Shown here: one piece after another, positions 47,446 through 64,000 of the stretch | Numbering within the stretch: the stretch's first letter is position 1 | How the letters are laid out: each line of letters opens with the position of its first letter | From: Chromatiales bacterium | GTDB lineage: Bacteria; Pseudomonadota; Gammaproteobacteria; SZUA-152 | Assembly: GCA_027010265.1 (NCBI GenBank) | Contig: JALVCE010000122.1 | Coordinates: forward strand, 681 to 64,680 | DNA: 64,000 nt | Direction: 5' to 3' | Made by a program: the position numbers and the translations under genes | The notes under the pieces: model-generated | Told to the model about the DNA's origin: nothing | Seen by the model: the letters and a program-made list of their open reading frames with translations, nothing else | Database searches by the model: none

Positions 47446-47470
47446 TTTTTTATTCAAAACCAGTACATGC

Positions 47471-50528: not shown

Positions 50529-50569
50529 TGCCCGAAATATGATTGATTTTGTTAATGGAGGTTGCATAA

Positions 50570-51487
50570 ATGCTTATTAAAAGATTGCCGGCCCTGCTGC
50601 TTGCCGGCTTGCTGCTGGGTTTGGTGGGTGGCGCGCAGGCGGCTGAAAAATTGTTCCCCTTTGTACTGGCCTCAACCGGCTCGGGTGATGTGGCTGCGAC
50701 GCTGAGCGAGGTAAAGGCCAAGTTGAGTGGCGCGGGTTTCGAGCTGGTGGGGGAATATTCGCCCTACGATAAAGCAGTTATCCTCATCGTCACATCCGAG
50801 GCCCTGAAAAATGCGGCGGCGAAATCCACGTTTGGTGGCTATGCAGCAGGTCAGCGGGTTTCCGTTACCAAGGTGGGCGATGAGATTCAGGTTGCCTACA
50901 CCAATCCGGTGTACATGGCCAATGCCTACCGGATGAAAGTAACCTTGCAGGATACGGCAGACAGGTTAAAAGCCGCCTTGGGGGCTATAAAGCAATACGG
51001 TCCCGAAGAGGGGATGGAAGCGGAGGATATTCGCAATTACCATTACATGTTTGGCATGGAATACTTTGATGAACCCAGCGTGCTGGCGGAATATAAATCC
51101 TTCAAGGAAGCGGTTGATAGAGTGGAAGCGGGGCTGGCGGCCAAAAAGGGAGGAGTGTCCAAGGTATATCGTATCGATGTGCCTGGAAAGGATGAGAGTG
51201 TGTTTGGTGTCCATCTCACCGATGGCTGCAGCAGTGACAAGTTCATTATGGGGCATATTGATTTCAAGCCCATCCGTTCCACGCCTCACCTGCCTTATGA
51301 AATGCTGGTCTCCGGCAACAAGGTGTACGCGCTGTACGCACGCTTTCGTATCGCCATCAATTTTCCTGACCTGAAGATGATGGGCGCCAACAGTTTCTTT
51401 AAGATCATGTGTGCGCCGGATGCTATTGAAGAGGCCTTGATGCAGGCTGCCGGGGTGAACAAATCAACAGACGAGGACGAGTTCTGA
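50570..51487 (+). CDS. exported protein of unknown function
   Basis: Signal peptide LLLGLVGGAQA|AE. 305 aa with no motif I can name. Confidence 0.6.
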   Translation: MLIKRLPALLLAGLLLGLVGGAQAAEKLFPFVLASTGSGDVAATLSEVKAKLSGAGFELVGEYSPYDKAVILIVTSEALKNAAAKSTFGGYAAGQRVSVTKVGDEIQVAYTNPVYMANAYRMKVTLQDTADRLKAALGAIKQYGPEEGMEAEDIRNYHYMFGMEYFDEPSVLAEYKSFKEAVDRVEAGLAAKKGGVSKVYRIDVPGKDESVFGVHLTDGCSSDKFIMGHIDFKPIRSTPHLPYEMLVSGNKVYALYARFRIAINFPDLKMMGANSFFKIMCAPDAIEEALMQAAGVNKSTDEDEF

Positions 51488-52941: not shown

Positions 52942-54384
52942 GTGATAATGGGCAATCCATGTAGTACCCAATCTGGCAGGGGTCCCCACCCAATCTGGCA
53001 GGTCATTGCATCGCTGATAGTGTTACAGGCGTTTGCCAGTCTGGTGTCTGCCGATGACGATCCAGCGTACGGTTCCCTTGATGAAACCCCTTCCGCCTTT
53101 GCCTTTTTCAGGGAACAGGCCGAGCAGGGCAGTGAGGAGGCGCAATACAATCTGGCGGTGATGTATGAGACAGGCTGGAGCGTGGCGGTCAATCATCGGC
53201 AGGCCGTTCGCTGGTTTCGAGAGGCGGCCAGACAGGGCAATGTGAACGCCCAGCTGCGTTTGGGTATGCTCTATTACCTGGGGCTGGGCGCCCGGCAGAG
53301 TAATATCAAGGGCGAAAAATGGATACGCAAGGCGGCAAAGCAGGGGCATCCCCTGGCGAAAGAACTGAATCGTCTGCTGTTTAAGGAAGAATTGCCCGAT
53401 GGCTTGTCCGCGGCGACAGTAATGTCCCGTGTGCGTGATGCCTATCTGGCGGATGAGCAATCGGCGGGAGCAGTGCTGGCGTCTATTACCCGACAGGCCC
53501 AGCGCAAGAATGAGCGGCTTGCCGAACAAAAAGAAGAGACCACCATCCGTGAGCGCAGGGCTCAGCGTGGCATTGAAGGCCCGGTGAGACCCGGTTTTTC
53601 CCCTGCGCAAAGTGTGGAACGCATTGGCAGTGCAGTGCCTGACTTTATCTCTGATGACTCAGTGGAAAAAAATCAAACCCTGTCCCGTGGCAACATAGCC
53701 ACACTCCGGCTTCAGGCGGAGCGGGGCCTGGCCAGTGCGCAATACAGTCTGGGGCGGATGTATGAAACCGGCCTGAAGTTGCCTGTGGACAAAAAGCGGG
53801 CCATGGAATGGTATGAGAAAGCCGCCCGCCAGGGATACGCGGATGCGGAATATCGTCTGGGTATTGCGCTGTACTATGGCACCGGCCCCACTCGTGATGA
53901 AGAAGAAGGTAAAAAATGGTTACGGCTGGCGGCCGGGCACGGTCATCCGGTGGCGAAAAATATGATGAATAAACTGGACGGGGAAGGTGTCGCCGCAACG
54001 CGTAATATGTCACTGGCGGTTCGGTGGTATCTTGAGCGCGCCACGCAAGGTGATCGTGAAGCCGCGTTTCACCTGGGAAAGATTTATGAACATGGCTGGG
54101 GTGTAAGCGGCGATCTTTCCGAAGCGTTTAAATGGTACCGGCTGGCCGCGCAGTCAGGGAATGAGCAGGCACAGTTACTGGTCTCGCAATTGCAGCCGCG
54201 CTTGGGTGAGAGAAAGGAAGAGGATCCGCCGTCATGGCTGGCAACACAACTGTCAGGCTATGGTTTGCCGCAATGGCTGGCGCATCCGCTGGTCATTGCA
54301 TCCATCGTTCTGGTGATTGTCTGGCCCTTACGACCGTGGCGCCGGAAAAAGGGACAGACCAATGGTGAGCTGCCCGAACCGTAG
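52942..54384 (+). CDS. Sel1-repeat (SLR/TPR-like) protein with C-terminal TM anchor
   Basis: Signal-like N-terminus, repeated AQYNLAVMYETGWGV / A..WY.KAA.QG units, and a terminal TM followed by RRKK. Confidence 0.85.
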   Translation: MIMGNPCSTQSGRGPHPIWQVIASLIVLQAFASLVSADDDPAYGSLDETPSAFAFFREQAEQGSEEAQYNLAVMYETGWSVAVNHRQAVRWFREAARQGNVNAQLRLGMLYYLGLGARQSNIKGEKWIRKAAKQGHPLAKELNRLLFKEELPDGLSAATVMSRVRDAYLADEQSAGAVLASITRQAQRKNERLAEQKEETTIRERRAQRGIEGPVRPGFSPAQSVERIGSAVPDFISDDSVEKNQTLSRGNIATLRLQAERGLASAQYSLGRMYETGLKLPVDKKRAMEWYEKAARQGYADAEYRLGIALYYGTGPTRDEEEGKKWLRLAAGHGHPVAKNMMNKLDGEGVAATRNMSLAVRWYLERATQGDREAAFHLGKIYEHGWGVSGDLSEAFKWYRLAAQSGNEQAQLLVSQLQPRLGERKEEDPPSWLATQLSGYGLPQWLAHPLVIASIVLVIVWPLRPWRRKKGQTNGELPEP

Positions 54385-54404: not shown

Positions 54405-55772
54405 TTACAAAGTACCGCGTTTGGTTTCGATTTCAACGCCCAGTGACTTGAGCATGGGGGTGGGCAGGATGCCGCCGGCACAAACAATGACGGCATCATT
54501 TTCAATAGTGACCTCTCCATCTTCCGTATTGATAGTTACCTGCTTCTCTGTAATTTCCTTTACTGTGGACTTGAGTAAGACAGTCATTTTCTTGGCATTG
54601 GCCGAGGCGCTGACCTTGTCGACATTTTTCGGGTTTGCCTTGGCGAATGCACCACTGCGGTAAGAAAGGGTGACGGTAGCACCGGGTTCGTCGGCGATGG
54701 TGATAGCGGCTTCCAGGGCACTGTTTCCGCCGCCCACCACGAGAACGTGTTTGTTGCGGAATTCCGCGGGGTCCGCAAGACGGTAAATGACCTTGCTTTG
54801 TTCTTCACCGGGGACACCCAGCTTGCGGGGGGTGCCGCGTCTGCCAATGGCCAGCAATACACTTTTTGTGTGATACGTGGCTTTGGGGCTCGTTACCATA
54901 AAACCATCTCTGGTTTTCTCGATGGATTCCATGCGTTCCATGCAATTGATCCTGACACCGGTTTGCTTTTCCACGTTTTGCCAGAAATCCATGAGGATTT
55001 CCTTGGTGGTTTCATTGAATTTTGCCTGGCCGACAATGGGTAACAATACCGGCGCGGTCATGACAATTTTTCCTCGGGGGAAATGTGCCACTGTCCCCCC
55101 CAGGGTTTCCTGTTCCAGGGTGACATAATTCAGGTTATGTTCGTGGGCATCGAGGGTGGCGGAAAAGCCGGCCGGGCCTGCGCCGATGATCACGACGTCA
55201 TAGGGAACGCTGGACTGGGAGTTGCTGATGGCCTGGCGGATGGACTCCATGGCCTGGCGTCCCTGCTCAATGGCGTTGCGAATCAGACCCATGCCGCCAA
55301 GCTCGCCGGCAACAAACAGACCGGGTACGTTGGTTTCGAAATTGGGGTTCAACATGGGGATATCGACACCCCGTTTTTCATTTCCGATCACCAGGGAGAT
55401 GGCATCCGTGGGGCAAGCCGTCTTGCAGGCGCCGTGGCCGATGCAGTGGCTGGGGTTGACCAGGTGCGCCTTTTCACGAATCACGCCGAGAACATTGCCT
55501 TCCGGACAGGCGTCCACACAGGTGGCGCAGCCAAGGCAGATGTTGTGGTCGATGATGGGGTGCAGTGAAGTGGGGGGATCGGCCAGGCCCGCCTGTTTGG
55601 ATTCTTCCAGGATGCGCTGGCTCTGTTCGTCACGTCGTTTTTTTACGGCACGATAGATGAACCACGCCAACGCAATGGGCACCAAAAAGACCAATACATC
55701 ATAGGCACTGTTTATGCCCGCCACCGACAGCAAATACAGTATGTCGGTGAGAAACTCAGAGCGTTGTTCCAT
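54405..55772 (-). CDS. membrane-anchored 2x FeS ferredoxin-domain / FAD-NAD(P)H oxidoreductase (TrxR-like fold)
   Basis: N-terminal TM followed by KKRRDE (cytoplasmic body), CLGCATCVDACP and CIGHGACKTACP, then DVVIIGAGPAG (FAD) and VLVVGGGNSALEAA (NAD(P)H). Confidence 0.85.
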   Translation of the reverse strand: MEQRSEFLTDILYLLSVAGINSAYDVLVFLVPIALAWFIYRAVKKRRDEQSQRILEESKQAGLADPPTSLHPIIDHNICLGCATCVDACPEGNVLGVIREKAHLVNPSHCIGHGACKTACPTDAISLVIGNEKRGVDIPMLNPNFETNVPGLFVAGELGGMGLIRNAIEQGRQAMESIRQAISNSQSSVPYDVVIIGAGPAGFSATLDAHEHNLNYVTLEQETLGGTVAHFPRGKIVMTAPVLLPIVGQAKFNETTKEILMDFWQNVEKQTGVRINCMERMESIEKTRDGFMVTSPKATYHTKSVLLAIGRRGTPRKLGVPGEEQSKVIYRLADPAEFRNKHVLVVGGGNSALEAAITIADEPGATVTLSYRSGAFAKANPKNVDKVSASANAKKMTVLLKSTVKEITEKQVTINTEDGEVTIENDAVIVCAGGILPTPMLKSLGVEIETKRGTL

Positions 55773-56093
55773 AATCCGTTATCTGTAACCCATAAAGAAA
55801 TCATGGTGATTGAGCGACTCTTGTGTATTTCGGTGCATTTCGGGGCTTGTACACACTGGCCCCGGGGCGCCGCCGATATAGTGGGTCGTTTTATGAAAAT
55901 CAATCACTTGTGGGAAACATATCCTTGCTGATGCCTAATTGCAATGCCTCTCGAGCGCATTGACAAGGGCCGGACGCTAGGGGATACAATGGCGTCACGT
56001 GGCCAAATATGGCACGGAAGCGGTATTTCATGCCCAGGTATTGTTCAACCTCGGTTGCTCAACGGGGGCTTTACATGGAGCAAATGCAGTCAT

Positions 56094-56852
56094 ATGAGCA
56101 GCCAATCCTCTTTTCTCACATGGTTACGTCATCCCGCCAGCATGGTGCTGATCATCGCCCTGGTGCTGATGCTTGTGGTGATGTCCGAACAATCGCCCCG
56201 GCAAGGGGATGGCACCACGGCGCCACCCCTGGCGCCTGAGCCCGCCAGCGTCGAGGCGGCACCGGCAGGCGCGCCGGCGGCCCCGGCCAGGATGGGTGGG
56301 GAATTGCCACGCATCGTGCGTCAGTTATCCGCCCCTGGGCAGAGCGCACCGGCGGCGAAAAAACCAGGCAGCGCCGCAGCCCCCGGCCGGTTACAGGCCC
56401 CCGATCTGGGCAGCCTGCTGGGTCGGCTGGAGGACAAGGTGAAGGCTGAACCCAGCAATATGGGCAATCGCCTATTGCTCGCGCAGACCTATAACGAACT
56501 GGGCCTGGGGGACAAGGCGCTGCAGGAGGCGCGCGCTGCCCGGCAGCAGGATCCCCGGCATGCCCGGGCCAAGCTGGTGTTGGCCGCTATTCTCAGTACC
56601 CGTGATGACCCGGCCGGTCTGCAGGAGGCCGCAGAGCTGTTGCAGGAACTGACCAGTGATTCCCAAATCAAACAATACCTGGTGGCCATGTACCAGGGGG
56701 ATGTGGCCATTCGCCAGGGCGATCATGACAAGGCGCTGCGTTTTTGGCAGCGGGCGCTGGATGAGATGCCGGTATCCGATAATCGTCGTGCCAGTATTGA
56801 AAAGCGCGTTGCTGAGCTGTCCGCCAAGGCATCTTCATCGGTTGAGGGCTGA
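56094..56852 (+). CDS. membrane-anchored Pro/Ala-rich TPR protein (CcmI/NrfG-like?)
   Basis: A TM (MVLIIALVLMLVVM), a P/A-rich linker, then TPR-like helices (LLLAQTYNELGLGDKALQEA...). Start uncertain: the ORF is open from 55944. The functional analogy is inference only. Confidence 0.6.
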   Translation: MSSQSSFLTWLRHPASMVLIIALVLMLVVMSEQSPRQGDGTTAPPLAPEPASVEAAPAGAPAAPARMGGELPRIVRQLSAPGQSAPAAKKPGSAAAPGRLQAPDLGSLLGRLEDKVKAEPSNMGNRLLLAQTYNELGLGDKALQEARAARQQDPRHARAKLVLAAILSTRDDPAGLQEAAELLQELTSDSQIKQYLVAMYQGDVAIRQGDHDKALRFWQRALDEMPVSDNRRASIEKRVAELSAKASSSVEG

Positions 56853-57030
56853 ATAAAGCGGGAATGGGACGAGTGGTGGGGCTGGTCACGACAGGGTCAC
56901 GAGGTGTGGGCAACTCCACCCGTTTGTCTCGGCATTTTTCGGGGGCTTCGTACAAAACATTGCAGGGTTTGAATCTGTATTAGGCAGGGTATTCTGGAAA
57001 ATCGGTCGAATAAAGTGGTATGGAGCTGTA

Positions 57031-58074
57031 GTGACAATGATGCTGTTTTTCAGATTCGCCAAACAGGAAGCGGTGGGTACCGAAGAGGGTGCGTCATTTT
57101 CGGCGGGGTCGGCGAAGATGAACGGTAGCCAGCAGGCGGGGGCGCTTACCCCGGCAACGCCCCCTTTGGAATTTTCCGCGGTGAAACTGCTGTCCGACCG
57201 CTACCCTTCTTTTATCGCCCGCGCCAACGAGGCCCGCTCGAAAAGTGAGTCACGGATCGTACTCATCGTTCTGTTGTTCATTTCTGCCCTGATGCTGGCC
57301 GCCTGGGCTGTCTGGGATCCGCGTTATTTTCACTCCGACAGCGACCTGGTGTACAACATGGGACTCTTCGGCGGCATCATGATGCTGGTGACCCTGCTCT
57401 ACGCCATGCGCAAGCGGATTCGTCTGATGCGAAAACTCGGCGAGCTGAGTTACTGGTATTACTTGCATCTGACCATGGGTGTGCTGGGTCCGGTGCTGAT
57501 CATTTTTCACAGTTCATTCACCATGAAGTCGCTGAACAGCTCGGTGTCGATGATCGCCATGTTGTGTATTATCGCCAGTGGTATTTTTGGTCGATACGTC
57601 TATACCCGCATTGGTTATCGCGTGCACAGTCATCTTCTGGCGATTCGTGATACGGAAGAACGCCTGGCCAGGGCAATGGAAAATTTCCAAGGTAAGGAAA
57701 CAGACGCCATTCGCAAATCCCTTACAGTGTTGACCATGTTGGTGGTGAACATGCCGCAATCACTGTTCCATTTGCCTGCGCGTTTTTTCGCGCTGCGCGC
57801 CAGGGCCGCCAAGTGTTATGTCGACGGGATCGGGCATATTTCAGCCATGTTAAAACAGCGCGCGCAGGAGGAAGACTGGGACAAGCTGACGTACCATGCG
57901 GAGTTTGCGCGGGAAAAGCGCCTGTTTCGTGAGCATATCAATGCCCTGGTGAAAATCGGCCAATTGCATTTTTATGAACGATTGCTGGTGGGTTGGCGAA
58001 TTTTTCATGTTCCCCTGATCTTTATTCTGGTCATCTCGGGACTGGTGCATGTTTTTGCGGTGCACTGGTATTAA
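57031..58074 (+). CDS. 5-TM membrane protein with two H-x13-H motifs (putative di-haem b electron-transfer subunit)
   Basis: TM3 is YLH-LTMGVLGPVLIIF-H and TM5 is FH-VPLIFILVISGLV-H. Both are predicted to run in the same direction by the positive-inside rule. I do not recognise the family. Confidence 0.65.
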   Translation: MTMMLFFRFAKQEAVGTEEGASFSAGSAKMNGSQQAGALTPATPPLEFSAVKLLSDRYPSFIARANEARSKSESRIVLIVLLFISALMLAAWAVWDPRYFHSDSDLVYNMGLFGGIMMLVTLLYAMRKRIRLMRKLGELSYWYYLHLTMGVLGPVLIIFHSSFTMKSLNSSVSMIAMLCIIASGIFGRYVYTRIGYRVHSHLLAIRDTEERLARAMENFQGKETDAIRKSLTVLTMLVVNMPQSLFHLPARFFALRARAAKCYVDGIGHISAMLKQRAQEEDWDKLTYHAEFAREKRLFREHINALVKIGQLHFYERLLVGWRIFHVPLIFILVISGLVHVFAVHWY

Positions 58075-59680
58075 GCATTTTCTTTTTCTGGTCTTCCTTC
58101 TTGCCCGTCTCCCGGGCAGGGCGATAGTTTCTGTCCTGTTGCTGGGCTTATGTCTGACCCCGCTGGCCGAGGCGGGTGTTAGTCCCCTGGAGAGGATGGA
58201 GGGTTTGGTGATGCCGGGCAAGGTCATCAAGCGCCATGCAAAATTTGAAAAGAAATGTGACAAATGTCACTCCGGGTTTGACCGCATGAAGCAAAGCGGG
58301 CAATGCAGGGATTGCCACAAGGCCATCGCCACGGACATCAAAAAAAGCCGTGGCTTTCACGGCAAGATTCCCCGCATCAAGGAGCGTGAATGCCGCACCT
58401 GCCACTCGGAGCATCTGGGACGCGATGCGGACATCGTGCAGCTGGATAAAGAATTATTCGACCACAATAAAACCGAGTTCAAGCTGGCCGGCGCCCATGT
58501 TTCGCTTGATTGCAACGAGTGCCACAAGAAGGTAGGCGTTTACCGTCAGCCGGAGCGCCATTGTTCCGATTGTCACGAGTCGGACGAGCCCCACAAGCAG
58601 CGTATGGGCAAGAAGTGCGAAAACTGCCACATCGAAGGCGCCTGGCTGCCGGCCTTTTTTGATCATTCCAACACCAAGTTCAAGCTGCGAAATGCGCATC
58701 GCGAATCGGCCTGTTTCAACTGCCATGTCAATGAGCGTTATGACGACACACCTCGCAATTGCTACTTTTGTCACCATCTCGATGATGTGCATAACGGGGA
58801 TCGCGGGATTCGCTGTCACGATTGCCATACCGACGAGCGCTGGTCGCAGATTCTTTTCGATCATGAAAAAGATACGGATTTTCCCCTCAGGGGTGGCCAT
58901 GCGCGGCTCATTTGCAAGGATTGTCACCAAGGACACATCTTTGAGGATGAGGTAAAAACCACCTGCTACGGCTGTCACGAAAAGCATGACGTACATTTCA
59001 AGCGTTATGGCAAGCGCTGCGATGTGTGTCACACAGAGAAGAACTGGATCGAGATTGATTTTGATCATGAGGTGGATACCAGCTTCCCGCTCAAGGGCAA
59101 ACACAAGGATTTAAGTTGCGCCGTCTGTCACCGGGAGGTGTTGTTCGAGGAACAGACCCCCAATACCTGTTCCGACTGTCATCGCCTGGATGACGCCCAT
59201 GAGGGTCAGGAAGGGGAGCAGTGTGAGCAATGTCATAATGAAAAAGGCTGGACCGAGCAGGTGGTTTTTGATCATGACATTACCAAGTTCCCCCTCCTGG
59301 AATCCCATATTTTGCTGACTTGCGAGGATTGCCATGCCTCGAATAAATTCAAGGAAGCCAAGGTGGCGTGTACTTCCTGCCATGAAGGCGATGATGTACA
59401 CGAGCAAAAACTGGGGGAACAGTGCGAACTTTGTCACCAGCCGTCTCACTGGATGGCCTGGGACTTTGATCACAACGAATTGACGGATTTCCCACTGGAT
59501 GGCAAGCACGAAGGCCTGGATTGCCATGCCTGCCACACCGAGCCGGTGGATGAAGAAATCGAATTGCCGAAGAACTGCTACGGGTGCCACGAAAAGGACG
59601 ATGTGCACAATACCCAGTTGGGCAAGCGCTGCGAAACCTGCCACATCACGGAGTCATTCAAAGAGATCAAGATCAAGTAG
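58049..59680 (+). CDS. 21-haem c-type cytochrome built from c7-like trihaem modules
   Basis: Signal peptide, 21 CXXCH motifs, and six FDH-x(4-6)-F-x-L-x-G/S-x-H-x4-CXXCH repeats. Overlaps the upstream gene by 26 nt. Confidence 0.9.
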   Translation: MFLRCTGIKHFLFLVFLLARLPGRAIVSVLLLGLCLTPLAEAGVSPLERMEGLVMPGKVIKRHAKFEKKCDKCHSGFDRMKQSGQCRDCHKAIATDIKKSRGFHGKIPRIKERECRTCHSEHLGRDADIVQLDKELFDHNKTEFKLAGAHVSLDCNECHKKVGVYRQPERHCSDCHESDEPHKQRMGKKCENCHIEGAWLPAFFDHSNTKFKLRNAHRESACFNCHVNERYDDTPRNCYFCHHLDDVHNGDRGIRCHDCHTDERWSQILFDHEKDTDFPLRGGHARLICKDCHQGHIFEDEVKTTCYGCHEKHDVHFKRYGKRCDVCHTEKNWIEIDFDHEVDTSFPLKGKHKDLSCAVCHREVLFEEQTPNTCSDCHRLDDAHEGQEGEQCEQCHNEKGWTEQVVFDHDITKFPLLESHILLTCEDCHASNKFKEAKVACTSCHEGDDVHEQKLGEQCELCHQPSHWMAWDFDHNELTDFPLDGKHEGLDCHACHTEPVDEEIELPKNCYGCHEKDDVHNTQLGKRCETCHITESFKEIKIK

Positions 59681-59929
59681 GCGGATCCTGGGGTTGGTTA
59701 TGGGTAGTAACCACGTGCTTTCTACGGTTAATTCGCCCCCGGTGGGACTCGTCTGCCGGGTGTAATTAGCCTATAGTATAAACCTACAATAATACTCGGA
59801 AATGAGGCGGTGTCCGGCGTTTCAGCAAGAGCCGGACGCCTGTGGGTCGAGGCCTGCTGTGTGGCCTTGTGTGCAACAGGATGTAACACAACGTAGGGGG
59901 TAGGCAGTATCAGGGTAGATGCTGTCAAA

Positions 59930-62900
59930 ATGTTGGGTAATCAGGGAGTGGGGCGGTCTGTTTCTGGCCGGCTGGGGATGCTGTTGTGCCTGCTGTTTAT
60001 GGTTATCTTTTCAGCTCCCCTCAGTGCTGCTGTGGTGCCTGATGTTTCGACCTTTGATCACCTGGTTACGGGTTTTCCTCTCGAAGGCCAACATGACATC
60101 ATCGATTGCGAGGCCTGCCACATCGGTGGTGTATTCGAGGTTCTGCCCACCCAGTGCGAGGCCTGTCATGATGGCATACTGGCCATTGGTCAGCCCCCTA
60201 CGCATATTCCCACCCTGGTTTCCTGTGACACCTGCCACAATGCGGTGGGCTTTGCCTTTTCCGCCACCATGGATCACAGCATCATCGGTGATACGACGTG
60301 TGAAACCTGCCATGATGGTGTCAGTGCCACCGGCCTGTCGCCCACGCATATTCCCACCAGCTTGAGCTGCGGCACCTGCCATGTCACCAGTACCTGGTTG
60401 ATAGCGGCGTTCGATCACTCCCTGGTGCAGGAACAGTCGTGCAGTGATTGCCACAACGGCACCTTTGCCACGGGCAAGCATGCGGCGCACATCAACACTA
60501 CGGATGTCTGCGAAAGCTGCCACACCAGTGTGGCCTGGGTGCCGGTGATTGTGGTGGACCATGCCCAGGTGCTGGGTAGCTGCGAAAGTTGCCATGATGG
60601 GTTGATCGCCAGGGGCAAGGGAGTGAATCATGTGCCAACCACTCTGGCCTGTGATACCTGCCATACGGTGAACAACTGGACGGTAGGTGTGTTCGATCAC
60701 TCCACCACCAGCGAGGCCTGTTACACCTGTCACAACGGCACCATCGCCACAGGGGTGAGCGCCAGCCACATCGCCACCACCAAGCAGTGCGATGCCTGTC
60801 ACCTGACCAACCTGTGGGTGCCGGTGTCCACTGTGGATCACGCACAGGTGCTGGGCAGTTGTGTGTCCTGTCACGACGGTGTGGTGGCCACGGGCAAGAA
60901 CCCCACGCACATCGACAGCTCGGATCTCTGCGAGACCTGCCACAGCGCCGAGCTGTGGATTCCCGCCACCACGGTGGATCACGGGCAGGTGAATGGCAGC
61001 TGCGCGAGTTGTCACGACGGTGTGATTGCCAGGGGCAAGGGCGCGACACACATTCCCACCACCGCGGCCTGCGAGCTTTGTCACACGGTCAACGACTGGC
61101 TGGTGGGCGCCTTCGATCACACCGGCATCACCGAGCCCTGCGCAACCTGCCACGATGGCGTCTCGGCGTCGGGCAAGGGCGCAACCCACATCAACACCAC
61201 GGATGTTTGCGAGGCCTGCCATGGGGTCACGGCCTGGGTGCCGGTGAATCCGTTGACGGATCACGCGCAGGTCATCGGCACCTGTGAGAGTTGCCACGAT
61301 GGCGTCATCGCCACCGGCAAGGGCATCAACCACATACCCACCACGGCGGCCTGCGAAGTGTGCCATAGCACCACGGACTGGCTTGTGGCGGTGTTCGATC
61401 ACACCACCACCACGGATGCGTGCGAAACCTGCCATGACGGCACCCTCGCTACCGGCAAAAATGCCACGCATATTCTCACCAGCGATGTGTGTGCCGCCTG
61501 TCATAACGACAGCGGCTGGGTGCCGGCCACCACCGTGGATCACAACGAAACCAAGGGCACCTGCCAGAGCTGTCACGATGGGGTGATCGCCACCGGCAAG
61601 ACCGACAAGACCGGCAGCCACATCAACACCACGGAAGTGTGCAACGCCTGTCACTCGCCGGTGGGCTGGTTGCCGGTGACGCTGGTAGACCATGCCGAAG
61701 TTATCGGCACCTGCGAATCCTGTCACGACGGGGTGAGCGCCAGGGGAGTGGGGCCGACGCACATTCCCACTACCGAGGCCTGCGATGTTTGCCACACGAC
61801 CGTGGACTGGACCGTGGCCGCGTTCGATCACAGCGGCGTGACTGCCGCCTGTATCAGTTGTCATGACGGTGTAACGGCAAGTGGTAAGCTCTCTTTGAGT
61901 GGCGTCCATATCGATACCAGCGACCTGTGTGAAGCCTGCCACGGCACGGCGGCCTGGTCGCCGGCCACGGCGGTGGACCACAACGAAGTGGTGGGTACCT
62001 GCCAGAGTTGTCACGACGGGGTGATCGCCTCGGGCAAGGGCGCCACGCATATTCTCACCAGTGACCTGTGCAACGCCTGCCATGTGTCCACCGCCTGGGT
62101 GCCCGCCACCACGGTGGATCACAACGAAACCCAGGGCACCTGCCAGAGCTGTCACGACGGCGTCATCGCCACCGGCAAGACCGATACCCACATCAACAGC
62201 TCGGATCAGTGCAACGCCTGCCACGCGCCCACCGGTGGCTGGGTGCCCACCATTGCGGTGGATCACAACGAGGTGATCGGCGTCTGCGCCTCCTGCCACG
62301 ACGGGGTGATCGCCACCGGTGTTGGCCCGACCCACGTGCCCACCACCGAGCCCTGCGATGTCTGCCACACCACGGTGGACTGGACGGTGCCGGCCTTTGA
62401 TCATTCCACCACCACTGCGGCCTGTATCAGTTGTCACGACGGCACTGTTGCTACAGGCATGAGCGCCACCCATATCAGCACCTCGAATCTCTGCGAGGCC
62501 TGTCATGTGGATACGGCGTGGATTCCCGCCAGCGCCGTGGATCACAACGAGATCACCACCGTGGGAGTGTGCGAGGCCTGCCATGACGGGGTGATCGCCA
62601 GCGACAAGTCCGCCACGCATATTCTCACCAGCGACGTGTGCGCCGCCTGTCACACGGTCACCGCCTGGGTGCCGGTGACCACGGTGGATCACAACGAGAC
62701 CCAGGGCATTTGCCAGAGTTGCCACGACGGCGTCATCGCCACCGGCAAGACGGACAAGACCGGCAGCCACCTCAACACCACGGAACAATGCAACGCCTGC
62801 CACTCGCCGGTGGGCTGGCTGCCGGTTACCCGGGTGGATCACAACGAGGTCATCGGCAGCTGCGAGTCTTGTCATGACGGCGTGCTGGCCACGGGCAAGG

Positions 62901-64000
62901 GACCCACCCACGTGCCCACGGTGGAGGCCTGCGAAGTGTGTCACCTGGTGACCACCTGGCTGGTGCCCAGCTTCGATCACAGCACCACCACGGACACCTG
63001 CATCACCTGTCACGATGGCATAACGGCAACTGGGAAATCAGCCAGCCACATCAACAGCAGCGATGTGTGCGAGGCCTGTCATTCGAGCCTGGTCTGGGCG
63101 CCGGTGGATCCGCTGGTGGATCATGCCCAGGTGCTGGGCAGTTGCGAGAGTTGCCACGACGGGGTGATCGCCACCGGCAAGGGCGCCACCCATGTGCCCA
63201 CGGTGGAGCCCTGCGAGGTGTGCCACTCCACCACCAACTGGTTCGTCACCGCCTTTGATCACAGCACCACCACGGACACCTGCATCACCTGCCACGACGG
63301 GGTCAGCGCCTCGGGCAAGGGGCCAACCCACATTCGCAGCAGCGATCTCTGCGAGGCCTGTCATAACAACACGGCCTGGGCGCCGGCCACGGCGGTGGAT
63401 CACAACGAGACCATGGGCACCTGCCAGAGTTGTCACGACGGGGTGATCGCCACGGGCAAGAACGCCACCCACATCGACACCAGCAACGTGTGCAATGCCT
63501 GTCACTCGCCCATCGGCTGGGTGCCGGTGACTACTGTGGATCACGCCCAGGTGAACGGCCTGTGCACCGCCTGCCACGACGGGGTCATTGCCACCGGCAT
63601 GGGCCCCACCCACGTGGCCACCAGCGCACCCTGCGATACCTGCCACACCACGGACAACTGGCTGGTGCCGTTGTTTGATCACAGCACCACCACCGACACT
63701 TGTATCACTTGCCATGATGGCATAACGGCCACCGGCAAGTCGGCCACCCATATCGACACCTCCGATGTGTGCGAGGCCTGTCACGTGGATACCGCGTGGA
63801 TCCCCGCCAGCGCGGTGGATCACACTGAAATCACCAATGTGGCGGTGTGCGAGGCCTGCCACGATGGCGTGATTGCCGTGGGTAAAGGCACAACACATAT
63901 CAACACCAGCGACATCTGCAACAGCTGCCATACCCCGGCGGCCTGGGCGCCGGCCAGTGCGGTGGATCACAACGAGGTGCAGGGCACCTGCCAGTCATGC
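59930..64000 (+). CDS. giant multihaem c-type cytochrome, 5' part only (open at window end)
   Basis: The + frame (codon starts congruent to 2 mod 3) has no stop from 59897 to 64000; I checked it codon by codon. Signal-like MLGNQGVGRSVSGRLGMLLCLLFMVIFSAPLSAA. 55 complete CXXCH motifs plus one cut by the window edge, in ~47-aa units. Absent from the ORF track because it has no in-window stop. Confidence 0.85.
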   Translation, partial: MLGNQGVGRSVSGRLGMLLCLLFMVIFSAPLSAAVVPDVSTFDHLVTGFPLEGQHDIIDCEACHIGGVFEVLPTQCEACHDGILAIGQPPTHIPTLVSCDTCHNAVGFAFSATMDHSIIGDTTCETCHDGVSATGLSPTHIPTSLSCGTCHVTSTWLIAAFDHSLVQEQSCSDCHNGTFATGKHAAHINTTDVCESCHTSVAWVPVIVVDHAQVLGSCESCHDGLIARGKGVNHVPTTLACDTCHTVNNWTVGVFDHSTTSEACYTCHNGTIATGVSASHIATTKQCDACHLTNLWVPVSTVDHAQVLGSCVSCHDGVVATGKNPTHIDSSDLCETCHSAELWIPATTVDHGQVNGSCASCHDGVIARGKGATHIPTTAACELCHTVNDWLVGAFDHTGITEPCATCHDGVSASGKGATHINTTDVCEACHGVTAWVPVNPLTDHAQVIGTCESCHDGVIATGKGINHIPTTAACEVCHSTTDWLVAVFDHTTTTDACETCHDGTLATGKNATHILTSDVCAACHNDSGWVPATTVDHNETKGTCQSCHDGVIATGKTDKTGSHINTTEVCNACHSPVGWLPVTLVDHAEVIGTCESCHDGVSARGVGPTHIPTTEACDVCHTTVDWTVAAFDHSGVTAACISCHDGVTASGKLSLSGVHIDTSDLCEACHGTAAWSPATAVDHNEVVGTCQSCHDGVIASGKGATHILTSDLCNACHVSTAWVPATTVDHNETQGTCQSCHDGVIATGKTDTHINSSDQCNACHAPTGGWVPTIAVDHNEVIGVCASCHDGVIATGVGPTHVPTTEPCDVCHTTVDWTVPAFDHSTTTAACISCHDGTVATGMSATHISTSNLCEACHVDTAWIPASAVDHNEITTVGVCEACHDGVIASDKSATHILTSDVCAACHTVTAWVPVTTVDHNETQGICQSCHDGVIATGKTDKTGSHLNTTEQCNACHSPVGWLPVTRVDHNEVIGSCESCHDGVLATGKGPTHVPTVEACEVCHLVTTWLVPSFDHSTTTDTCITCHDGITATGKSASHINSSDVCEACHSSLVWAPVDPLVDHAQVLGSCESCHDGVIATGKGATHVPTVEPCEVCHSTTNWFVTAFDHSTTTDTCITCHDGVSASGKGPTHIRSSDLCEACHNNTAWAPATAVDHNETMGTCQSCHDGVIATGKNATHIDTSNVCNACHSPIGWVPVTTVDHAQVNGLCTACHDGVIATGMGPTHVATSAPCDTCHTTDNWLVPLFDHSTTTDTCITCHDGITATGKSATHIDTSDVCEACHVDTAWIPASAVDHTEITNVAVCEACHDGVIAVGKGTTHINTSDICNSCHTPAAWAPASAVDHNEVQGTCQSC

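What the first reader, a model, noticed from the sequence alone, without database searches (positions are those of the whole stretch)
54405..64000. Candidate trans-envelope electron conduit: FeS-flavoprotein + TPR + di-haem-b-like membrane protein + 21-haem + 55-plus-haem cytochromes
Five adjacent genes read as one electron path.
- A cytoplasm-facing, TM-anchored protein (minus strand, divergent from the other four) carries two ferredoxin-type cluster motifs plus FAD and NAD(P)H GxGxxG/A folds.
- A membrane-anchored TPR protein resembles the apocytochrome-handling TPR modules of CcmI/NrfG. This analogy is inference.
- A 5-TM protein has two H-x13-H pairs on parallel helices.
- A secreted 21-haem cytochrome follows.
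- The secreted giant cytochrome comes last. Its start is about 250 nt downstream of the 21-haem gene, so it may have its own promoter.

Taken together:
- This looks like a split, NOX-like arrangement: pyridine-nucleotide/FeS module, then trans-membrane b haems, then a periplasmic or extracellular c-haem wire.
- In a sulfur-oxidising autotroph it could run outward (extracellular electron transfer) or inward (electron uptake feeding NAD(P)+ or ferredoxin reduction).
- I do not recognise this gene combination as a described system.
- No MtrB/PCC-type beta-barrel gene and no ccm genes are in the window. They may lie downstream.
Basis: inference. Interest (0 to 1): 0.85.

Follow-up and report, generated by a model that had tools for sequence, protein, structure and literature searches.

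The report
PCC3-type cytochrome conduit with flavoprotein partner
This is a real gene cluster for a predicted electron "wire" across the cell envelope, of a type already named PCC3 but never tested, and comparing genomes shows it is consistently linked to a membrane-anchored NAD(P)H-type iron-sulfur flavoprotein that published PCC3 models leave out.

Summary
**Observation.** All five genes are present as described:
- a TM-anchored 2xFeS + FAD/NAD(P)H flavoprotein
- a CcmI/CycH-like TPR protein
- a 5-TM protein with two WX3HX13H motifs
- a 21-haem cytochrome
- a truncated cytochrome with at least 55 haems

**What it is.** The membrane protein and both cytochromes match the published criteria for "PCC3" (He et al. 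2017). PCC3 is a bioinformatically predicted, still untested porin-cytochrome conduit. That paper had already noted the NOX/ferric-reductase resemblance. Syntenic relatives carry the missing outer-membrane protein downstream, after a 143-aa gene.

**What is new.**
- The FeS-flavoprotein sits next to the long-form membrane protein in 29 of 34 loci, across seven phyla or classes and in several gene orders.
- In Chloroflexi, a shorter form of the membrane protein always follows a different, ferredoxin-reductase-type flavoprotein.
- I found no mention of a PCC3 flavoprotein in the papers read.

**Likely mechanism (inferred).** NAD(P)H passes electrons to FAD, then the FeS clusters, then two b haems, then the 21-haem periplasmic wire, then the porin and giant extracellular cytochrome. 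Flow is probably outward.

**Not supported.**
- Membership of the NOX/FRD family failed every test.
- I could not check whether the type PCC3 clusters of Sideroxydans carry the flavoprotein.

The parts
54405..55772 (-). Gene A: membrane-anchored FeS-flavoprotein (455 aa). It has an N-terminal TM anchor, a 2-cluster ferredoxin domain and a TrxR/YpdA-type FAD + NAD(P)H domain. The flavin domain has no CxxC.
   Evidence: Pfam and NCBIfam. PDB sequence search gives best hits to YpdA/Bdr and TrxR-type ferredoxin-NADP reductases, E 4e-27 to 1e-13. A 100% identical protein, P0135, is annotated '4Fe-4S dicluster domain-containing protein [Gammaproteobacteria bacterium]'.
55641..55709 (-). TM anchor of A (aa about 22-44), followed by a K/R-rich stretch. 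The catalytic domains are therefore predicted to be cytoplasmic.
   Evidence: All 33 homologues aligned keep an N-terminal hydrophobic helix followed by basic residues. There is no Tat or Sec signal. The topology is inferred from the positive-inside rule.
55503..55538 (-). First FeS motif, CLGCATCVDACP (CxxCxxCxxxCP).
   Evidence: Conserved in homologues.
55410..55445 (-). Second FeS motif, CIGHGACKTACP (C-x2-H-x2-C-x3-CP), with His where a standard ferredoxin has Cys.
   Evidence: The C-x-G-H-G-x-C-x3-CP motif is kept in every full-length homologue aligned, across the phyla sampled.
55167..55184 (-). FAD-binding GxGxxG (GAGPAG, aa 197-202).
   Evidence: Lies within the Pyr_redox_3/Pyr_redox_2 match.
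54717..54734 (-). NAD(P)H-binding GxGxxA (GGGNSA, aa 347-352).
   Evidence: Pyr_redox PF00070 matches aa 342-416.
55773..56093 (.). Divergent intergenic region between A and B. It holds a conserved block (AAAATCAAtCACTTG ... ACATATCgTTGCtt ... AATTGCAA ... gcaTTGACAA).
   Evidence: Alignment of 7 relatives. An FNR-like site with one mismatch lies at 55890-55903 (4 such matches in the window against 1.55 expected, so it is weak).
56094..56852 (+). Gene B: TM-anchored periplasmic TPR protein of the CcmI/CycH type (252 aa from ATG 56094; the mechanical ORF starts at 55944).
   Evidence: TPR_CcmH_CycH E 1e-10. Other assemblies of the same organism call it as 252 aa. The syntenic genes in L023 and L029 carry Ig_CycH plus TPR_CcmH_CycH.
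57031..58074 (+). Gene C: PCC3-type inner membrane protein (IMP), 345-347 aa. It has 5 TM helices and a cytoplasmic helical bundle of about 120 aa between TM4 and TM5. It is predicted to bind two b haems.
   Evidence: AF2 model with pLDDT 83. Invariant W142, H146, H160, G184, G187, W322, H326, H340 in 72 sequences. The motifs are present in every IMP ORF listed from the related loci that covers both helices.
57454..57510 (+). WX3HX13H motif on TM3 (W142, H146, H160).
57577..57591 (+). SGxxG motif on TM4 (S183-G187), followed by invariant R188.
57994..58050 (+). WX3HX13H motif on TM5 (W322, H326, H340).
58049..59680 (+). Gene D: secreted 21-haem cytochrome c (543 aa) built from seven c7-type trihaem units of about 67 aa. 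This is the predicted periplasm-spanning wire. As called, it overlaps C by 26 nt.
   Evidence: 21 CxxCH, 25.9 aa per haem, 50 His. Cytochrome_C7 E 2.6e-25. Conserved at 36-77% identity with 21 haems in most related loci examined.
59903..59926 (+). 9-bp hairpin (GGCAGUAUC/GAUGCUGUC) ending 3 nt before the ATG of E. Whether it belongs to the system is uncertain.
   Evidence: Pairing is kept through base changes in L004 and L007. It is present in the MFE fold, but the region's z-score is only -1.4.
59930..64000 (+). Gene E (5' part only): secreted giant cytochrome c with at least 55 CxxCH. It is a low-complexity T/V/A/G/S/D-rich repeat with one haem per 23-26 aa. This is the predicted extracellular wire.
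   Evidence: Pfam Cytochrome_C7 2e-70 and Paired_CXXCH_1 6e-40, NCBIfam DmsE-family decahaem 2e-54. Homologues carry 12 to 65+ haems in relatives.
52942..54384 (+). Sel1-repeat protein with a signal peptide and a C-terminal TM anchor. It is a conserved accessory gene.
   Evidence: Sel1 E 2e-51. It is syntenic in L001-L019 and appears as Sel1+ankyrin fusions next to A in L022, L026, L029 and L084.
51592..52743 (-). Ankyrin-repeat protein (383 aa as called in another assembly) with a signal-like N-terminus. It is a conserved accessory gene.
   Evidence: Ank_2 E 4e-97. Synteny.

Best explanation
The locus is the inner-membrane and cytochrome half of a PCC3-type porin-cytochrome conduit. It sits in an uncultured sulfur-oxidising gammaproteobacterium (the same organism as GCA_011051685.1).

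**Proposed electron path**
1. A TM-anchored cytoplasmic flavoprotein (A) takes electrons from NAD(P)H at FAD. It passes them through a [4Fe-4S] cluster and a His-containing FeS cluster.
2. A docks on the cytoplasmic helical bundle of the 5-TM protein C. C carries two bis-His b haems stacked across the membrane (H146/H326 on the inside, H160/H340 on the outside).
3. Electrons pass to the 21-haem periplasmic cytochrome D.
4. In relatives, and presumably beyond the window end here, they continue through an outer-membrane protein of 760-830 aa to one or two giant extracellular cytochromes (E).

**Accessory roles**
- The TPR protein B is a CcmI/CycH-like helper for maturing these very large apocytochromes.
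- The periplasmic Sel1 and ankyrin proteins are conserved accessories of unknown role.

**What is shown and what is inferred**
- Shown: the anatomy, the motifs and the gene linkage.
- Inferred: haem b binding, the physical A-C contact, bypass of the quinone pool, and direction.

**Rough probabilities**
- PCC3-type conduit: about 0.9.
- A functionally coupled to C: about 0.8.
- Coupling is direct rather than through quinone: about 0.55.
- Net flow is outward: about 0.6-0.65. Outward flow is downhill in potential and is helped by the membrane potential.
For: **PCC3 criteria**
- Published criteria: an IMP of about 300 aa with 5 TM, SGxxG on TM4 and two WX3HX13H on TM3/TM5. A periplasmic cytochrome with a median of 21 haems. 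An extracellular cytochrome with a median of 34 and up to 63 haems, low-complexity and T/S/A/G-rich. A large porin.
- Window: all IMP motifs are present and invariant. D has 21 haems in seven units of about 67 aa at 25.9 aa per haem, matching the Riftia-symbiont example in He's Supplementary Figure 1. E has at least 55 haems at 24.7 aa per haem.
- Six relatives have downstream a 143-aa protein and a 760-830-aa outer-membrane protein ending in Y-[ST]-F.

**Linkage of the flavoprotein**
- A homologues (38-87% identity) lie within a few kb of the long-form IMP in 29 of 34 loci. Two of the five exceptions are truncated contigs.
- The linkage spans Gammaproteobacteria, Binatia, Thermodesulfobacteriota, Nitrospinota, Bacteroidota, Gemmatimonadota and Acidobacteriota. 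Gene order varies: divergent, downstream of the cytochromes, or IMP-A overlapping by 13 nt.
- Starting from A instead, both distant homologues looked up (a Nitrospinaceae and an Acidiferrobacterales MAG) lie beside an IMP with both motifs plus multihaem cytochromes.

**Independent parallel in Chloroflexi**
- In the roughly 39 Chloroflexi loci, a short IMP (about 185 aa, lacking the cytoplasmic insertion) lies directly downstream of a BphA4/putidaredoxin-reductase-type NADH flavoprotein. A 15-18-haem cytochrome follows in the loci mapped.
- The cytoplasmic insertion is present in every locus that has the A-type partner and absent from all 42 short-form IMPs. The 5 long-form loci without a detected A are the exceptions noted above.

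**Haem b**
- Some long IMPs weakly hit dihaem-cytochrome-b Pfam models: Ni_hydr_CYTB in 3 of 21 (best 3.6e-6) and DUF4405 in 6 of 21.

**Established analogy (from knowledge)**
- FdnH/FdnI and the [NiFe]-hydrogenase small subunit with HyaC are TM-anchored FeS subunits that feed a dihaem cytochrome b. The hydrogenase exit cluster is His-ligated.

**Consistent with outward flow**
- PCC3 genes in Sideroxydans ES-1 are down-regulated on Fe(II) relative to thiosulfate.
Against: - There is no biochemical evidence for any step. PCC3 is still called "functionally unverified" or "predicted" in 2025-2026 papers.
- The porin is not in the window.
- I could not obtain the Sideroxydans or Leptothrix type sequences. 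Homology to them is therefore untested, and so is whether they carry the flavoprotein. PCC3 papers describe four-gene clusters.
- The Pfam families the IMP weakly resembles (Ni_hydr_CYTB) are typically quinone-reactive. This favours the published quinone model.
- NAD(P)H-driven outward flow looks wasteful for a chemolithoautotroph.
- Three long-form IMP loci (L021, L032, L035) show no A within the DNA held.
- The Fisher test is not corrected for shared ancestry.
Confidence: 0.6

Rival explanations
1. This is the published PCC3 model. The conduit runs inward. Extracellular Fe(II), a mineral or another solid donor is oxidised by the extracellular cytochrome. Electrons travel through the porin and the 21-haem wire to the IMP, which acts as a quinone reductase feeding the quinone pool. 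The flavoprotein is then either a neighbour with a separate job or a dedicated NAD(P)H:quinone reductase working through the same local quinone pool.
For: - He et al. proposed this model.
- PCC3 occurs in several Fe(II) oxidisers.
- Weak Pfam similarity of some IMPs to Ni_hydr_CYTB, a family of quinone-reactive cytochromes b (P0081).
- The IMP component of one PCC3 copy rose in iron-oxidising Sideroxydans CL21 cells.
Against: - This model does not explain the tight, rearrangement-resistant linkage of a cytoplasmic NAD(P)H/FeS flavoprotein to the IMP across seven phyla or classes.
- It does not explain the second, unrelated ferredoxin-reductase-type flavoprotein in Chloroflexi operons.
- It does not explain why the IMP's cytoplasmic insertion is confined to the lineages that carry the A-type partner.
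- Both PCC3 clusters were down-regulated on Fe(II) in ES-1.
- Most carriers are not known metal oxidisers.
Confidence: 0.22
2. This is a maturation module rather than a conduit entry. A, C and B would serve biogenesis of the giant cytochromes. NAD(P)H-derived electrons would be sent across the membrane by C to keep haem iron or the many CxxCH thiols reduced. B would chaperone the apocytochromes.
For: - B belongs to the CcmI/CycH TPR family, and syntenic homologues carry Ig_CycH.
- A is thioredoxin-reductase-like.
- The cluster must attach at least 76 haems.
Against: - A has no redox-active CxxC in its flavin domain, so it is not a disulfide reductase.
- The Chloroflexi three-gene operons mapped and the IMP-A-cytochrome operons (L033, L088) show no TPR gene.
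- The IMP is adjacent to, or overlaps, the periplasmic cytochrome gene, as expected for a stoichiometric partner.
Confidence: 0.08
3. This is inward electron uptake that directly reduces NAD(P)+ or ferredoxin. Extracellular low-potential donors would feed electrons through E, D and C to A, which would run in reverse as an NAD(P)+ reductase for autotrophy.
For: - TrxR-type ferredoxin-NADP reductases are reversible (established knowledge).
- The host looks like a sulfur-oxidising lithotroph. SoxB- and SoxA-like genes, DsrE2 and TusA lie in the window or its syntenic flank.
Against: - Moving electrons inward works against the membrane potential.
- For most plausible donors the step to NAD(P)+ is uphill in redox potential, and no energy-coupling subunit is evident in the cluster (inference).
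- The same module occurs in Anaerolineae. From my own knowledge, not tested here, these are mostly fermentative heterotrophs.
Confidence: 0.07

Closest known systems
PCC3 porin-cytochrome c cluster (He, Barco, Emerson & Roden 2017; Sideroxydans ES-1 Slit_0867-0870 and Slit_1446-1449, Leptothrix, tubeworm endosymbionts)
   Same: - An IMP of about 300 aa with 5 TM, SGxxG and two WX3HX13H motifs.
- An adjacent 21-haem periplasmic cytochrome built of ~66-aa (here ~67-aa) repeats, at about 26 aa per haem.
- An extracellular cytochrome with tens of haems and low-complexity repeats.
- In relatives, a large outer-membrane protein.
- The gene order IMP, periplasmic cytochrome, extracellular cytochrome, porin matches Slit_1446-1449.
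   Different: - The linkage to a TM-anchored FeS-flavoprotein, a CcmI-like TPR protein and Sel1/ankyrin proteins is not in the published description.
- A 143-aa gene precedes the porin.
- The extracellular cytochrome (at least 55 haems) is near the top of the reported range.
- The host is a sulfur-oxidising gammaproteobacterial MAG, not an iron oxidiser.
- Sequence homology to the type members was not tested.
Two-component NOX-like system Fre-MsrQ(-MsrP) and the NOX/FRE/STEAP ferric-reductase-domain family
   Same: The logic is the same. A cytoplasmic NAD(P)H flavoprotein feeds two bis-His b haems stacked across the membrane on two helices (H-x13-H), which reduce a periplasmic partner.
   Different: - No detectable homology: no PF01794 hit, hhalign probability 0.1% against E. 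coli MsrQ, and no Foldseek hit in the PDB.
- 5 TM plus a cytoplasmic helical bundle, rather than 6 TM.
- FeS clusters sit between the flavin and the haem.
- The acceptor is a multihaem cytochrome.
FdnGHI formate dehydrogenase-N and [NiFe]-hydrogenase-1 HyaABC (TM-anchored FeS subunit plus dihaem cytochrome b)
   Same: - A single-helix-anchored FeS subunit hands electrons to a dihaem cytochrome b.
- The hydrogenase exit cluster is His-ligated, like the conserved CxxHxxC cluster of A.
- Some IMPs weakly hit Ni_hydr_CYTB.
   Different: - The orientation is inverted: here the FeS subunit is cytoplasmic.
- The far-side partner is a cytochrome c wire rather than quinone.
- hhalign against HyaC gives a probability of only 0.7%.
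MtrCAB/CymA (Shewanella), MtoAB (Sideroxydans), and Listeria Ndh2-EetAB-PplA
   Same: - The overall plan of inner-membrane entry, periplasmic multihaem wire, porin and extracellular cytochrome.
- Listeria shows the precedent of a dedicated NADH dehydrogenase reserved for extracellular electron transfer.
   Different: - The entry module here is a dihaem b protein, not a NapC/NirT quinol dehydrogenase.
- The periplasmic wire has 21 haems rather than 10.
- E hits the DmsE/MtrC-family models only below their cut-offs.
- No quinone step is implied by the gene set.
CcmI/CycH and NrfG apocytochrome-handling TPR proteins (for gene B)
   Same: A TM-anchored periplasmic TPR domain that matches PF23914. 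Syntenic homologues also carry the CycH Ig-like domain and weakly hit NrfG.
   Different: - The window protein scores right at the Pfam threshold and lacks the Ig_CycH domain.
- It is encoded with its presumed client cytochromes, not with ccm genes.

Membership tests
PCC3 (He et al. 2017) | Conserved inner membrane protein of about 300 aa with five TM helices | tested here: met
   345-347 aa. The AF2 model (pLDDT 83) shows TM helices at about 64-94, 105-127, 139-160, 168-192 and 318-346, plus a cytoplasmic bundle.
PCC3 (He et al. 2017) | Two WX3HX13H motifs (TM3, TM5) and SGxxG on TM4 | tested here: met
   W142/H146/H160, S183GIFG187, W322/H326/H340. They are invariant in 72 homologues and present in every IMP ORF listed from the related loci that covers both helices.
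PCC3 (He et al. 2017) | Adjacent periplasmic multihaem cytochrome (median 21 haems, low aa:haem ratio, internal repeats) | tested here: met
   D has 21 CxxCH, 25.9 aa per haem, seven units of about 67 aa and a signal peptide. Compare the Riftia-symbiont example.
PCC3 (He et al. 2017) | Extracellular multihaem cytochrome with very many haems and low-complexity T/S/A/G-rich repeats | tested here: met
   E has at least 55 CxxCH and 24.7 aa per haem. T, V, A, C, H, G, S and D together make up 73% of residues. Extracellular location is inferred, not tested.
PCC3 (He et al. 2017) | Large beta-barrel outer-membrane porin in the same cluster | tested here: inconclusive
   The window ends inside E. Syntenic relatives L002, L011, L013, L016, L017 and L020 have a 760-830-aa secreted protein ending in Y-[ST]-F after the cytochromes. 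It has no significant Pfam match, only a sub-threshold TPR_16 hit at E 0.005, and the barrel itself was not modelled.
PCC3 (He et al. 2017) | Sequence homology to the type clusters (Sideroxydans ES-1, Leptothrix cholodnii) | not tested
   Those sequences could not be retrieved with the scans left. The profile search returned no named Gallionellaceae protein among the 120 listed.
Ferric reductase domain / NOX family (PF01794) | Two His pairs on two parallel TM helices, spaced to hold two stacked b haems | tested here: met
   H-x13-H on both TM3 and TM5, in the same orientation by the positive-inside rule. Haem binding itself cannot be tested here.
Ferric reductase domain / NOX family (PF01794) | Detectable sequence or profile similarity to the family | tested here: not met
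   No PF01794 hit for the window protein or for 21 homologues at E up to 1. hhalign against E. coli MsrQ gives a probability of 0.1%.
Ferric reductase domain / NOX family (PF01794) | Six-TM FRD fold | tested here: not met
   The model has five TM helices. Foldseek against 350,542 PDB chains finds nothing at E up to 1e-3 and no NOX, STEAP or MsrQ among the top 50.
Prokaryotic dihaem cytochrome b (Ni_hydr_CYTB PF01292 / DUF4405) | Match to the family models | tested here: inconclusive
   The window protein gives no hit. Among 21 long-form homologues, 3 hit PF01292 (best 3.6e-6) and 6 hit DUF4405 (best 1.6e-4). hhalign against HyaC gives 0.7%.
YpdA/Bdr and TrxR-type ferredoxin-NADP reductases (gene A) | Two-Rossmann FAD + NAD(P)H fold of the TrxR type, without a redox-active CxxC | tested here: met
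   PDB hits 7a76 and 7a7b at E 4e-27 and 2e-25, and FNRs at 1e-13. GxGxxG occurs twice, and the only CxxC is in the FeS motif.
YpdA/Bdr and TrxR-type ferredoxin-NADP reductases (gene A) | Reaches the curated family score (TIGR04018 YpdA cut-off 339.9; TRX_reduct 343) | tested here: not met
   176.1 and 94.8 bits. In addition, the C-terminal FAD segment of YpdA aligns before the first Rossmann fold (aa 138-183), which points to a circular permutation, and the TM and Fer4 domains are extra.
CcmI/CycH apocytochrome chaperone (gene B) | TPR_CcmH_CycH domain on a membrane anchor | tested here: met
   42.1 bits against a cut-off of 42, E 1e-10, with a single N-terminal TM. This is a marginal pass.
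CcmI/CycH apocytochrome chaperone (gene B) | Ig_CycH C-terminal domain | tested here: not met
   Absent from the window protein. It is present in the syntenic genes of L023 and L029.

The most novel reading that the evidence does not exclude
PCC3-type conduits, and the wider uncharacterised family of WX3HX13H membrane proteins, may not be quinone-linked iron oxidases at all. That family has about 4,000 clusters at 50% identity and no Pfam model matched by the window protein. They may instead be the transmembrane core of a widespread two-component, NOX-like NAD(P)H:multihaem-cytochrome oxidoreductase.

In this reading, a dedicated cytoplasmic flavoprotein docks on the dihaem protein and drives electrons outward, bypassing the quinone pool. 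The flavoprotein is FeS-containing and membrane-anchored in Proteobacteria, Nitrospinota, Binatia, Bacteroidota and Gemmatimonadota. It is ferredoxin-reductase-type in Chloroflexi.

In sediment sulfur oxidisers this would be a route for dumping reducing equivalents onto distant extracellular acceptors, through a cytochrome of more than 55 haems.
Probability: 0.35. Interest if true: 0.85.

Novelty: new variant of a known kind. Interest (0 to 1): 0.62.

Why it matters
PCC3 is one of the most widespread predicted extracellular-electron-transfer systems. It is routinely scored as a putative iron oxidase in genome surveys, yet nobody knows what it does or which way it runs.

- **A different energy-coupling model.** A conserved, dedicated NAD(P)H/FeS flavoprotein at its cytoplasmic end implies pyridine nucleotide rather than quinone as the electron source or sink. 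It favours outward flow.
- **A possible explanation for an odd result.** Outward flow would fit the observation that PCC3 is not induced by Fe(II) in Sideroxydans.
- **A concrete experiment.** The pair flavoprotein plus dihaem membrane protein can be reconstituted and tested directly.
- **A large unnamed family.** The membrane protein belongs to a family of about 4,000 clusters at 50% identity. The window protein matches no Pfam model, and Foldseek found no solved structure like it. This family appears to be a general adaptor between cytoplasmic flavoproteins and multihaem cytochromes.
- **Ecology.** In sulfur-oxidising sediment bacteria, a cytochrome of more than 55 haems coupled in this way would bear on how such cells reach remote electron acceptors.

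Tried and rejected
**Exact-sequence look-ups.** Look-ups of D and C found nothing because of differing start calls. The window's own contigs were later found through the flavoprotein. Even so, every assembly breaks inside the giant cytochrome, so the sequence beyond 64000 could not be read.

**Scan pattern.** The first alignment for the genome scan was too divergent to give a search pattern. A narrower alignment worked. Its patterns were specific, though, and did not pull in Betaproteobacteria.

**NOX/FRD membership.** I tested this with Pfam, hhalign against E. coli MsrQ, and Foldseek against the PDB. All were negative, so I kept NOX only as a functional analogy. hhalign against HyaC was also negative. 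Both hhalign tests used single-sequence templates and are therefore weak.

**Structure of the flavoprotein.** I submitted it without an alignment by mistake. The model came back at pLDDT 38, is unusable, and was not searched.

**Cytochrome D against the PDB.** The sequence search found nothing at E up to 1e-3.

**Separate promoter or terminator for E.** The scans gave background-level hits only, and there was no Rfam family.

**Neighbours of the Sideroxydans PCC3 clusters.** Literature and supplement searches for Slit_1444, Slit_1445 and Slit_0871 found nothing. He et al.'s Supplementary Table 4 is held only as an image.

**NDH-2 idea for Chloroflexi.** I considered whether the Chloroflexi partner flavoprotein is an NDH-2-type quinone reductase, which would favour the quinone model. 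I rejected this because its best matches are ferredoxin or rubredoxin reductases of the BphA4, putidaredoxin-reductase and NorW type.

**A different use of the name.** One 2026 paper uses "PCC3 architecture" for the Geobacter OmbB-OmaB-OmcB and ExtEFG conduits. This is a different usage and is not relevant here.

Full report

Yes. The ORF list, a three-frame translation of the last 4.3 kb and two family scans confirm five genes.

- **A (54405-55772, minus strand, 455 aa).**
  - It has an N-terminal hydrophobic helix followed by KKRRDE.
  - It has a standard CxxCxxCxxxCP motif (aa 79-90). Its second motif reads C-x2-H-x2-C-x3-CP (aa 110-121), with His in place of Cys.
  - It has GAGPAG (aa 197-202) and GGGNSA (aa 347-352). 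The flavin part has no CxxC.
- **B.** As called in other assemblies of the same organism, B starts at 56094 and is 252 aa. It has one TM anchor, an Ala/Pro-rich linker and a TPR_CcmH_CycH match (E 1e-10, right at the Pfam cut-off).
- **C (57031/57037-58074).** It has W142-x3-H146-x13-H160, S183GIFG187 and W322-x3-H326-x13-H340.
- **D (58049-59680).** It has exactly 21 CxxCH in seven units of about 67 aa.
- **E.** It starts at ATG 59930, 249 nt after D, and is still open at 64000. It has 55 CxxCH in 1356 aa, one per 23-26 aa, and 112 His. Chance would give fewer than one such motif.

Two other assemblies of the same organism break inside E, so its repeat number is uncertain.

**2. Whose genome is it?**

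The flavoprotein is 100% identical to a protein annotated from a "MAG TPA Gammaproteobacteria bacterium". The same locus is on GCA_011051685.1 contig DRKQ01000070.1. The closest species-level relatives in the genome collection are uncultured Ectothiorhodospiraceae and Thiohalomonadales-like MAGs.

Upstream, the window carries SoxB-like and SoxA/TsdA-like genes, DsrE2 and two FadL-type outer-membrane proteins. TusA sits next to DsrE2 in the other assemblies. "Sulfur oxidiser" is therefore reasonable. Autotrophy was not checked.

**3. What is it? A PCC3-type cluster.**

He et al. 2017 (PMC5566968) defined PCC3 by four components:
- a porin;
- an extracellular multihaem cytochrome (median 34 haems, up to 63; low-complexity, rich in T/S/A/G);
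- a periplasmic multihaem cytochrome (median 21 haems);

They compared the IMP with the ferric-reductase/NOX domain and proposed that it binds two b haems and reacts with quinone.

The window's C, D and E meet every one of these criteria. D has the same 21 haems and about 26 aa per haem, with seven repeats of about 67 aa (66 aa in their example), as their Riftia-symbiont example. The IMP motifs are invariant in 72 homologues and present in every IMP ORF listed from the related loci that covers both helices.

The porin cannot be seen here because the window ends inside E. Six syntenic relatives (IMP 41-42% identical) continue with one or two giant cytochromes (12-41 haems), a 143-aa protein and a 760-830-aa secreted protein ending in Y-[ST]-F. 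A closer relative, L010, has a 39-haem cytochrome and a truncated one with at least 63 haems.

PCC3 remains functionally unverified in papers from 2023 to 2026. In Sideroxydans ES-1, both PCC3 clusters were down-regulated on Fe(II) relative to thiosulfate.

**4. What goes beyond the published description?**

The text of He et al. contains no mention of FAD, pyridine nucleotide or TPR in connection with PCC3. Later papers describe four-gene clusters.

*Linkage seen from the IMP side.* I fetched 74 loci from species-representative genomes using the IMP, plus others by exact-protein look-up. I then tabulated homologues of every window gene.
- The flavoprotein A is better conserved than the IMP: 51-87% identity against 27-73%.
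- It lies within a few kb of the long-form IMP in 29 of 34 loci. Two of the five exceptions are contigs that end about 1 kb upstream of the IMP.
- The linkage holds in Gammaproteobacteria of several orders, Binatia, Thermodesulfobacteriota, Saprospiraceae, Gemmatimonadota and Acidobacteriota.
- It survives rearrangement. A is divergent from the operon here, downstream of the cytochromes in L034, and directly after the IMP in L033. In L088 the two genes overlap by 13 nt.

*Linkage seen from the flavoprotein side.* Starting from A, both distant homologues I looked up, a Nitrospinaceae and an Acidiferrobacterales MAG, again lie with a motif-bearing IMP, a CcmH-type TPR gene and multihaem cytochromes.

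*Features conserved in A.* Every full-length A homologue aligned keeps the N-terminal anchor with its following basic stretch, and the C-x-G-H-G-x-C-x3-CP motif.

**5. An independent parallel in Chloroflexi.**

About 40 Anaerolineae and other Chloroflexi loci carry a short IMP of about 185 aa. It has the same motifs but lacks the roughly 100-120-aa cytoplasmic insertion between TM4 and TM5.
- None of these loci has an A-type flavoprotein (0 of 42 short-form IMPs).
- In the roughly 39 such loci, the gene immediately upstream on the same strand is a 423-470-aa NADH flavoprotein. Its best matches are ferredoxin or rubredoxin reductases such as BphA4, putidaredoxin reductase and NorW, not NDH-2.
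- In the loci mapped, the gene immediately downstream is a 15-18-haem cytochrome.

He et al.'s Supplementary Table 6 already lists such triads of cytochrome, 192-aa IMP and a 412-425-aa "other redox protein". It does not say what the redox protein is.

Two different NAD(P)H flavoprotein families are thus tied to the same membrane protein family. The IMP's cytoplasmic insertion is present wherever the A-type partner is found and absent from every short-form IMP. Together, these are the strongest arguments that the flavoprotein is the cytoplasmic electron entry or exit of the IMP. This is gene-context inference, and the Fisher test is not corrected for phylogeny.

**6. The membrane protein.**

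- An AlphaFold2 model built from 72 sequences is confident (pLDDT 83, pTM 0.75). TM4 and TM5 continue as long helices into a four-helix bundle formed with residues 222-281.
- The charge distribution places the RKRIRLMRK loop and this bundle in the cytoplasm. H146 and H326 would then hold the inner haem, and H160 and H340 the outer haem.
- Foldseek against the PDB finds no match at E up to 1e-3.
- The window protein matches no Pfam or NCBIfam model at or above the curated thresholds.
- hhalign against E. coli MsrQ and HyaC is negative, though these are weak single-sequence tests.
- Among 21 long-form homologues, 3 weakly hit Ni_hydr_CYTB and 6 hit DUF4405, while none hits Ferric_reduct. From memory, these families share Pfam's dihaem-cytochrome clan.
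- A profile search of 1.84 billion representative proteins finds 3,956 clusters at E up to 1e-3 and 765 at E up to 1e-30. This is a large family. The window protein matches no Pfam or NCBIfam model at threshold, and the named database hits are all "hypothetical protein".

**7. The flavoprotein.**

- Its flavin part is of the TrxR/YpdA type, and its closest solved relatives include TrxR-type ferredoxin-NADP reductases.
- It falls far below the curated YpdA and TrxR scores.
- The segment that is C-terminal in YpdA aligns before the first Rossmann fold (aa 138-183), which suggests a circular permutation.
- It is best described as a ferredoxin-NAD(P) reductase fused to its own two-cluster ferredoxin and to a membrane anchor.
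- From general knowledge, His-ligated or three-Cys clusters of this kind are typical surface-exposed exit clusters, as in the distal cluster of [NiFe]-hydrogenase small subunits. From my recollection, a CxxHxxC...CP motif binds [3Fe-4S] in some actinobacterial ferredoxins. Which applies here is unknown.

**8. The TPR and repeat proteins.**

B hits the CcmI/CycH TPR model. In L023 and L029, the gene at the same position, between A and the IMP, carries Ig_CycH (E 1e-32 and 2e-29) plus TPR_CcmH_CycH, and weakly hits NrfG.

Periplasmic Sel1 and ankyrin proteins are also conserved with the cluster. In Sedimenticola, Thermodesulfobacteriota and Nitrospinaceae they appear as Sel1+ankyrin fusions next to A. 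Their role is unknown.

**9. Mechanism and direction.**

The most likely path is:

NAD(P)H -> FAD -> FeS clusters of A -> inner and outer b haems of C -> 21-haem D, which published work judges long enough to span the periplasm -> porin -> E.

The closest mechanistic precedents are:
- the Fre-MsrQ two-component NOX-like system;
- FdnH/FdnI and the hydrogenase small subunit with HyaC, in inverted orientation.

Outward flow is downhill in potential and is aided by the membrane potential. Inward flow to NAD(P)+ is uphill on both counts, and no coupling subunit is evident.

The main rival is the published quinone-coupled, inward iron-oxidation model. It is favoured by the weak resemblance to quinone-reactive cytochromes b, but it does not explain the flavoprotein linkage. 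A maturation-only role for A, B and C is unlikely. A lacks a disulfide centre, and IMP-flavoprotein-cytochrome operons exist without a TPR gene.

**10. Verdict.**

- The cluster is a new member of the PCC3 kind.
- Its conserved flavoprotein, TPR, Sel1 and ankyrin accessory set is, as far as the papers searched show, undescribed for PCC3. If it functions as proposed, it would change the working model of how PCC3 is coupled to metabolism.
- The key gap is that I could not inspect the type PCC3 clusters of Sideroxydans and Leptothrix for the flavoprotein.

Noticed in passing
L036-L074 (Chloroflexi loci), e.g. L037:8717-12062: There is a compact module on one strand: a ferredoxin-reductase-type NADH flavoprotein (423-470 aa), then a short WX3HX13H membrane protein (about 185 aa), then a 15-18-haem cytochrome. 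The flavoprotein-IMP pair is seen in the roughly 39 Anaerolineae and other Chloroflexi loci. No porin was identified in the two loci mapped. It looks like a minimal version of the same electron path.
   Followed up: partly
window 59903-59926: A 9-bp hairpin ends 3 nt before the start codon of the giant cytochrome. Its pairing is kept through base changes in L004 and L007, while the rest of the 249-nt spacer is not conserved. The folding z-score of the region is only -1.4, so its significance is unclear.
   Followed up: partly
window 55880-55990: The divergent A/B intergenic region contains a conserved block. It includes AAAATCAAtCACTTG, an imperfect TTGC...GCAA repeat and a conserved TTGACA. 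An FNR-like site with one mismatch lies at 55890-55903. This may be a shared regulatory region.
   Followed up: partly
window 54405-55772 (aa 138-183 against aa 191-452): The flavoprotein appears circularly permuted relative to YpdA/TrxR. The segment that is C-terminal in YpdA (GD-type FAD motif, ...ETNVPGLFVAGELGG...) lies before the first Rossmann fold.
   Followed up: no
window 51592-52743 (-) and 52942-54384 (+); L084:11436-14222; L022:5218-7248: Secreted ankyrin-repeat and Sel1-repeat proteins travel with the cluster. In several distant lineages they are fused into one Sel1+ankyrin protein of 676-928 aa next to the flavoprotein gene. A second Sel1/ankyrin gene follows the porin in L002, L011, L016, L017 and L020.
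   Followed up: partly
L002:14280-14711 and L002:14793-17081 (also L011, L013, L016, L017, L020): A conserved 143-aa protein with no family match precedes the outer-membrane protein. The N-terminal part of the outer-membrane protein resembles it in sequence by eye, and a TPR-like stretch follows. Published PCC3 descriptions do not mention either feature.
   Followed up: no
window 40415-51487: The upstream neighbourhood holds these genes:
- SoxB-like (40415-42139, -)
- SoxA/TsdA-like cytochrome (42495-43559, -)
- M48 peptidase with TPR (44848-46374, -)
- DsrE2 (46972-47445)
- two FadL/TodX-type outer-membrane proteins (47554-48822 -, 49146-50465 +)
- a 305-aa secreted protein with a faint DUF302 hit (50570-51487)

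The stretch from FadL to hyp305 is syntenic with the conduit in close relatives.
   Followed up: partly
window 60011-63970 (- strand): Very long antisense ORFs (1000 aa and 310 aa) and several +-strand off-frame ORFs overlap the giant cytochrome gene. GC rises to 0.61-0.64 here. These are by-products of the repetitive Cys/His/Gly/Ala/Thr-rich coding sequence, not genes.
   Followed up: yes
L025:12298-15276 (Candidatus Binatia): In the Binatia variant, the gene after the 18-haem cytochrome is a 992-aa NHL-repeat/beta-propeller protein, and a 14-haem cytochrome follows it. I found no porin homologue by BLAST. NHL-repeat proteins also occur in the Uet conduit described for Tenderia.
   Followed up: no
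L021:9824-10903: A long-form IMP stands alone, with no flavoprotein or cytochrome within 10 kb. It lies next to a HAMP histidine kinase. This is an exception to the linkage rule, in the same MAG that also has a complete cluster (L016).
   Followed up: no
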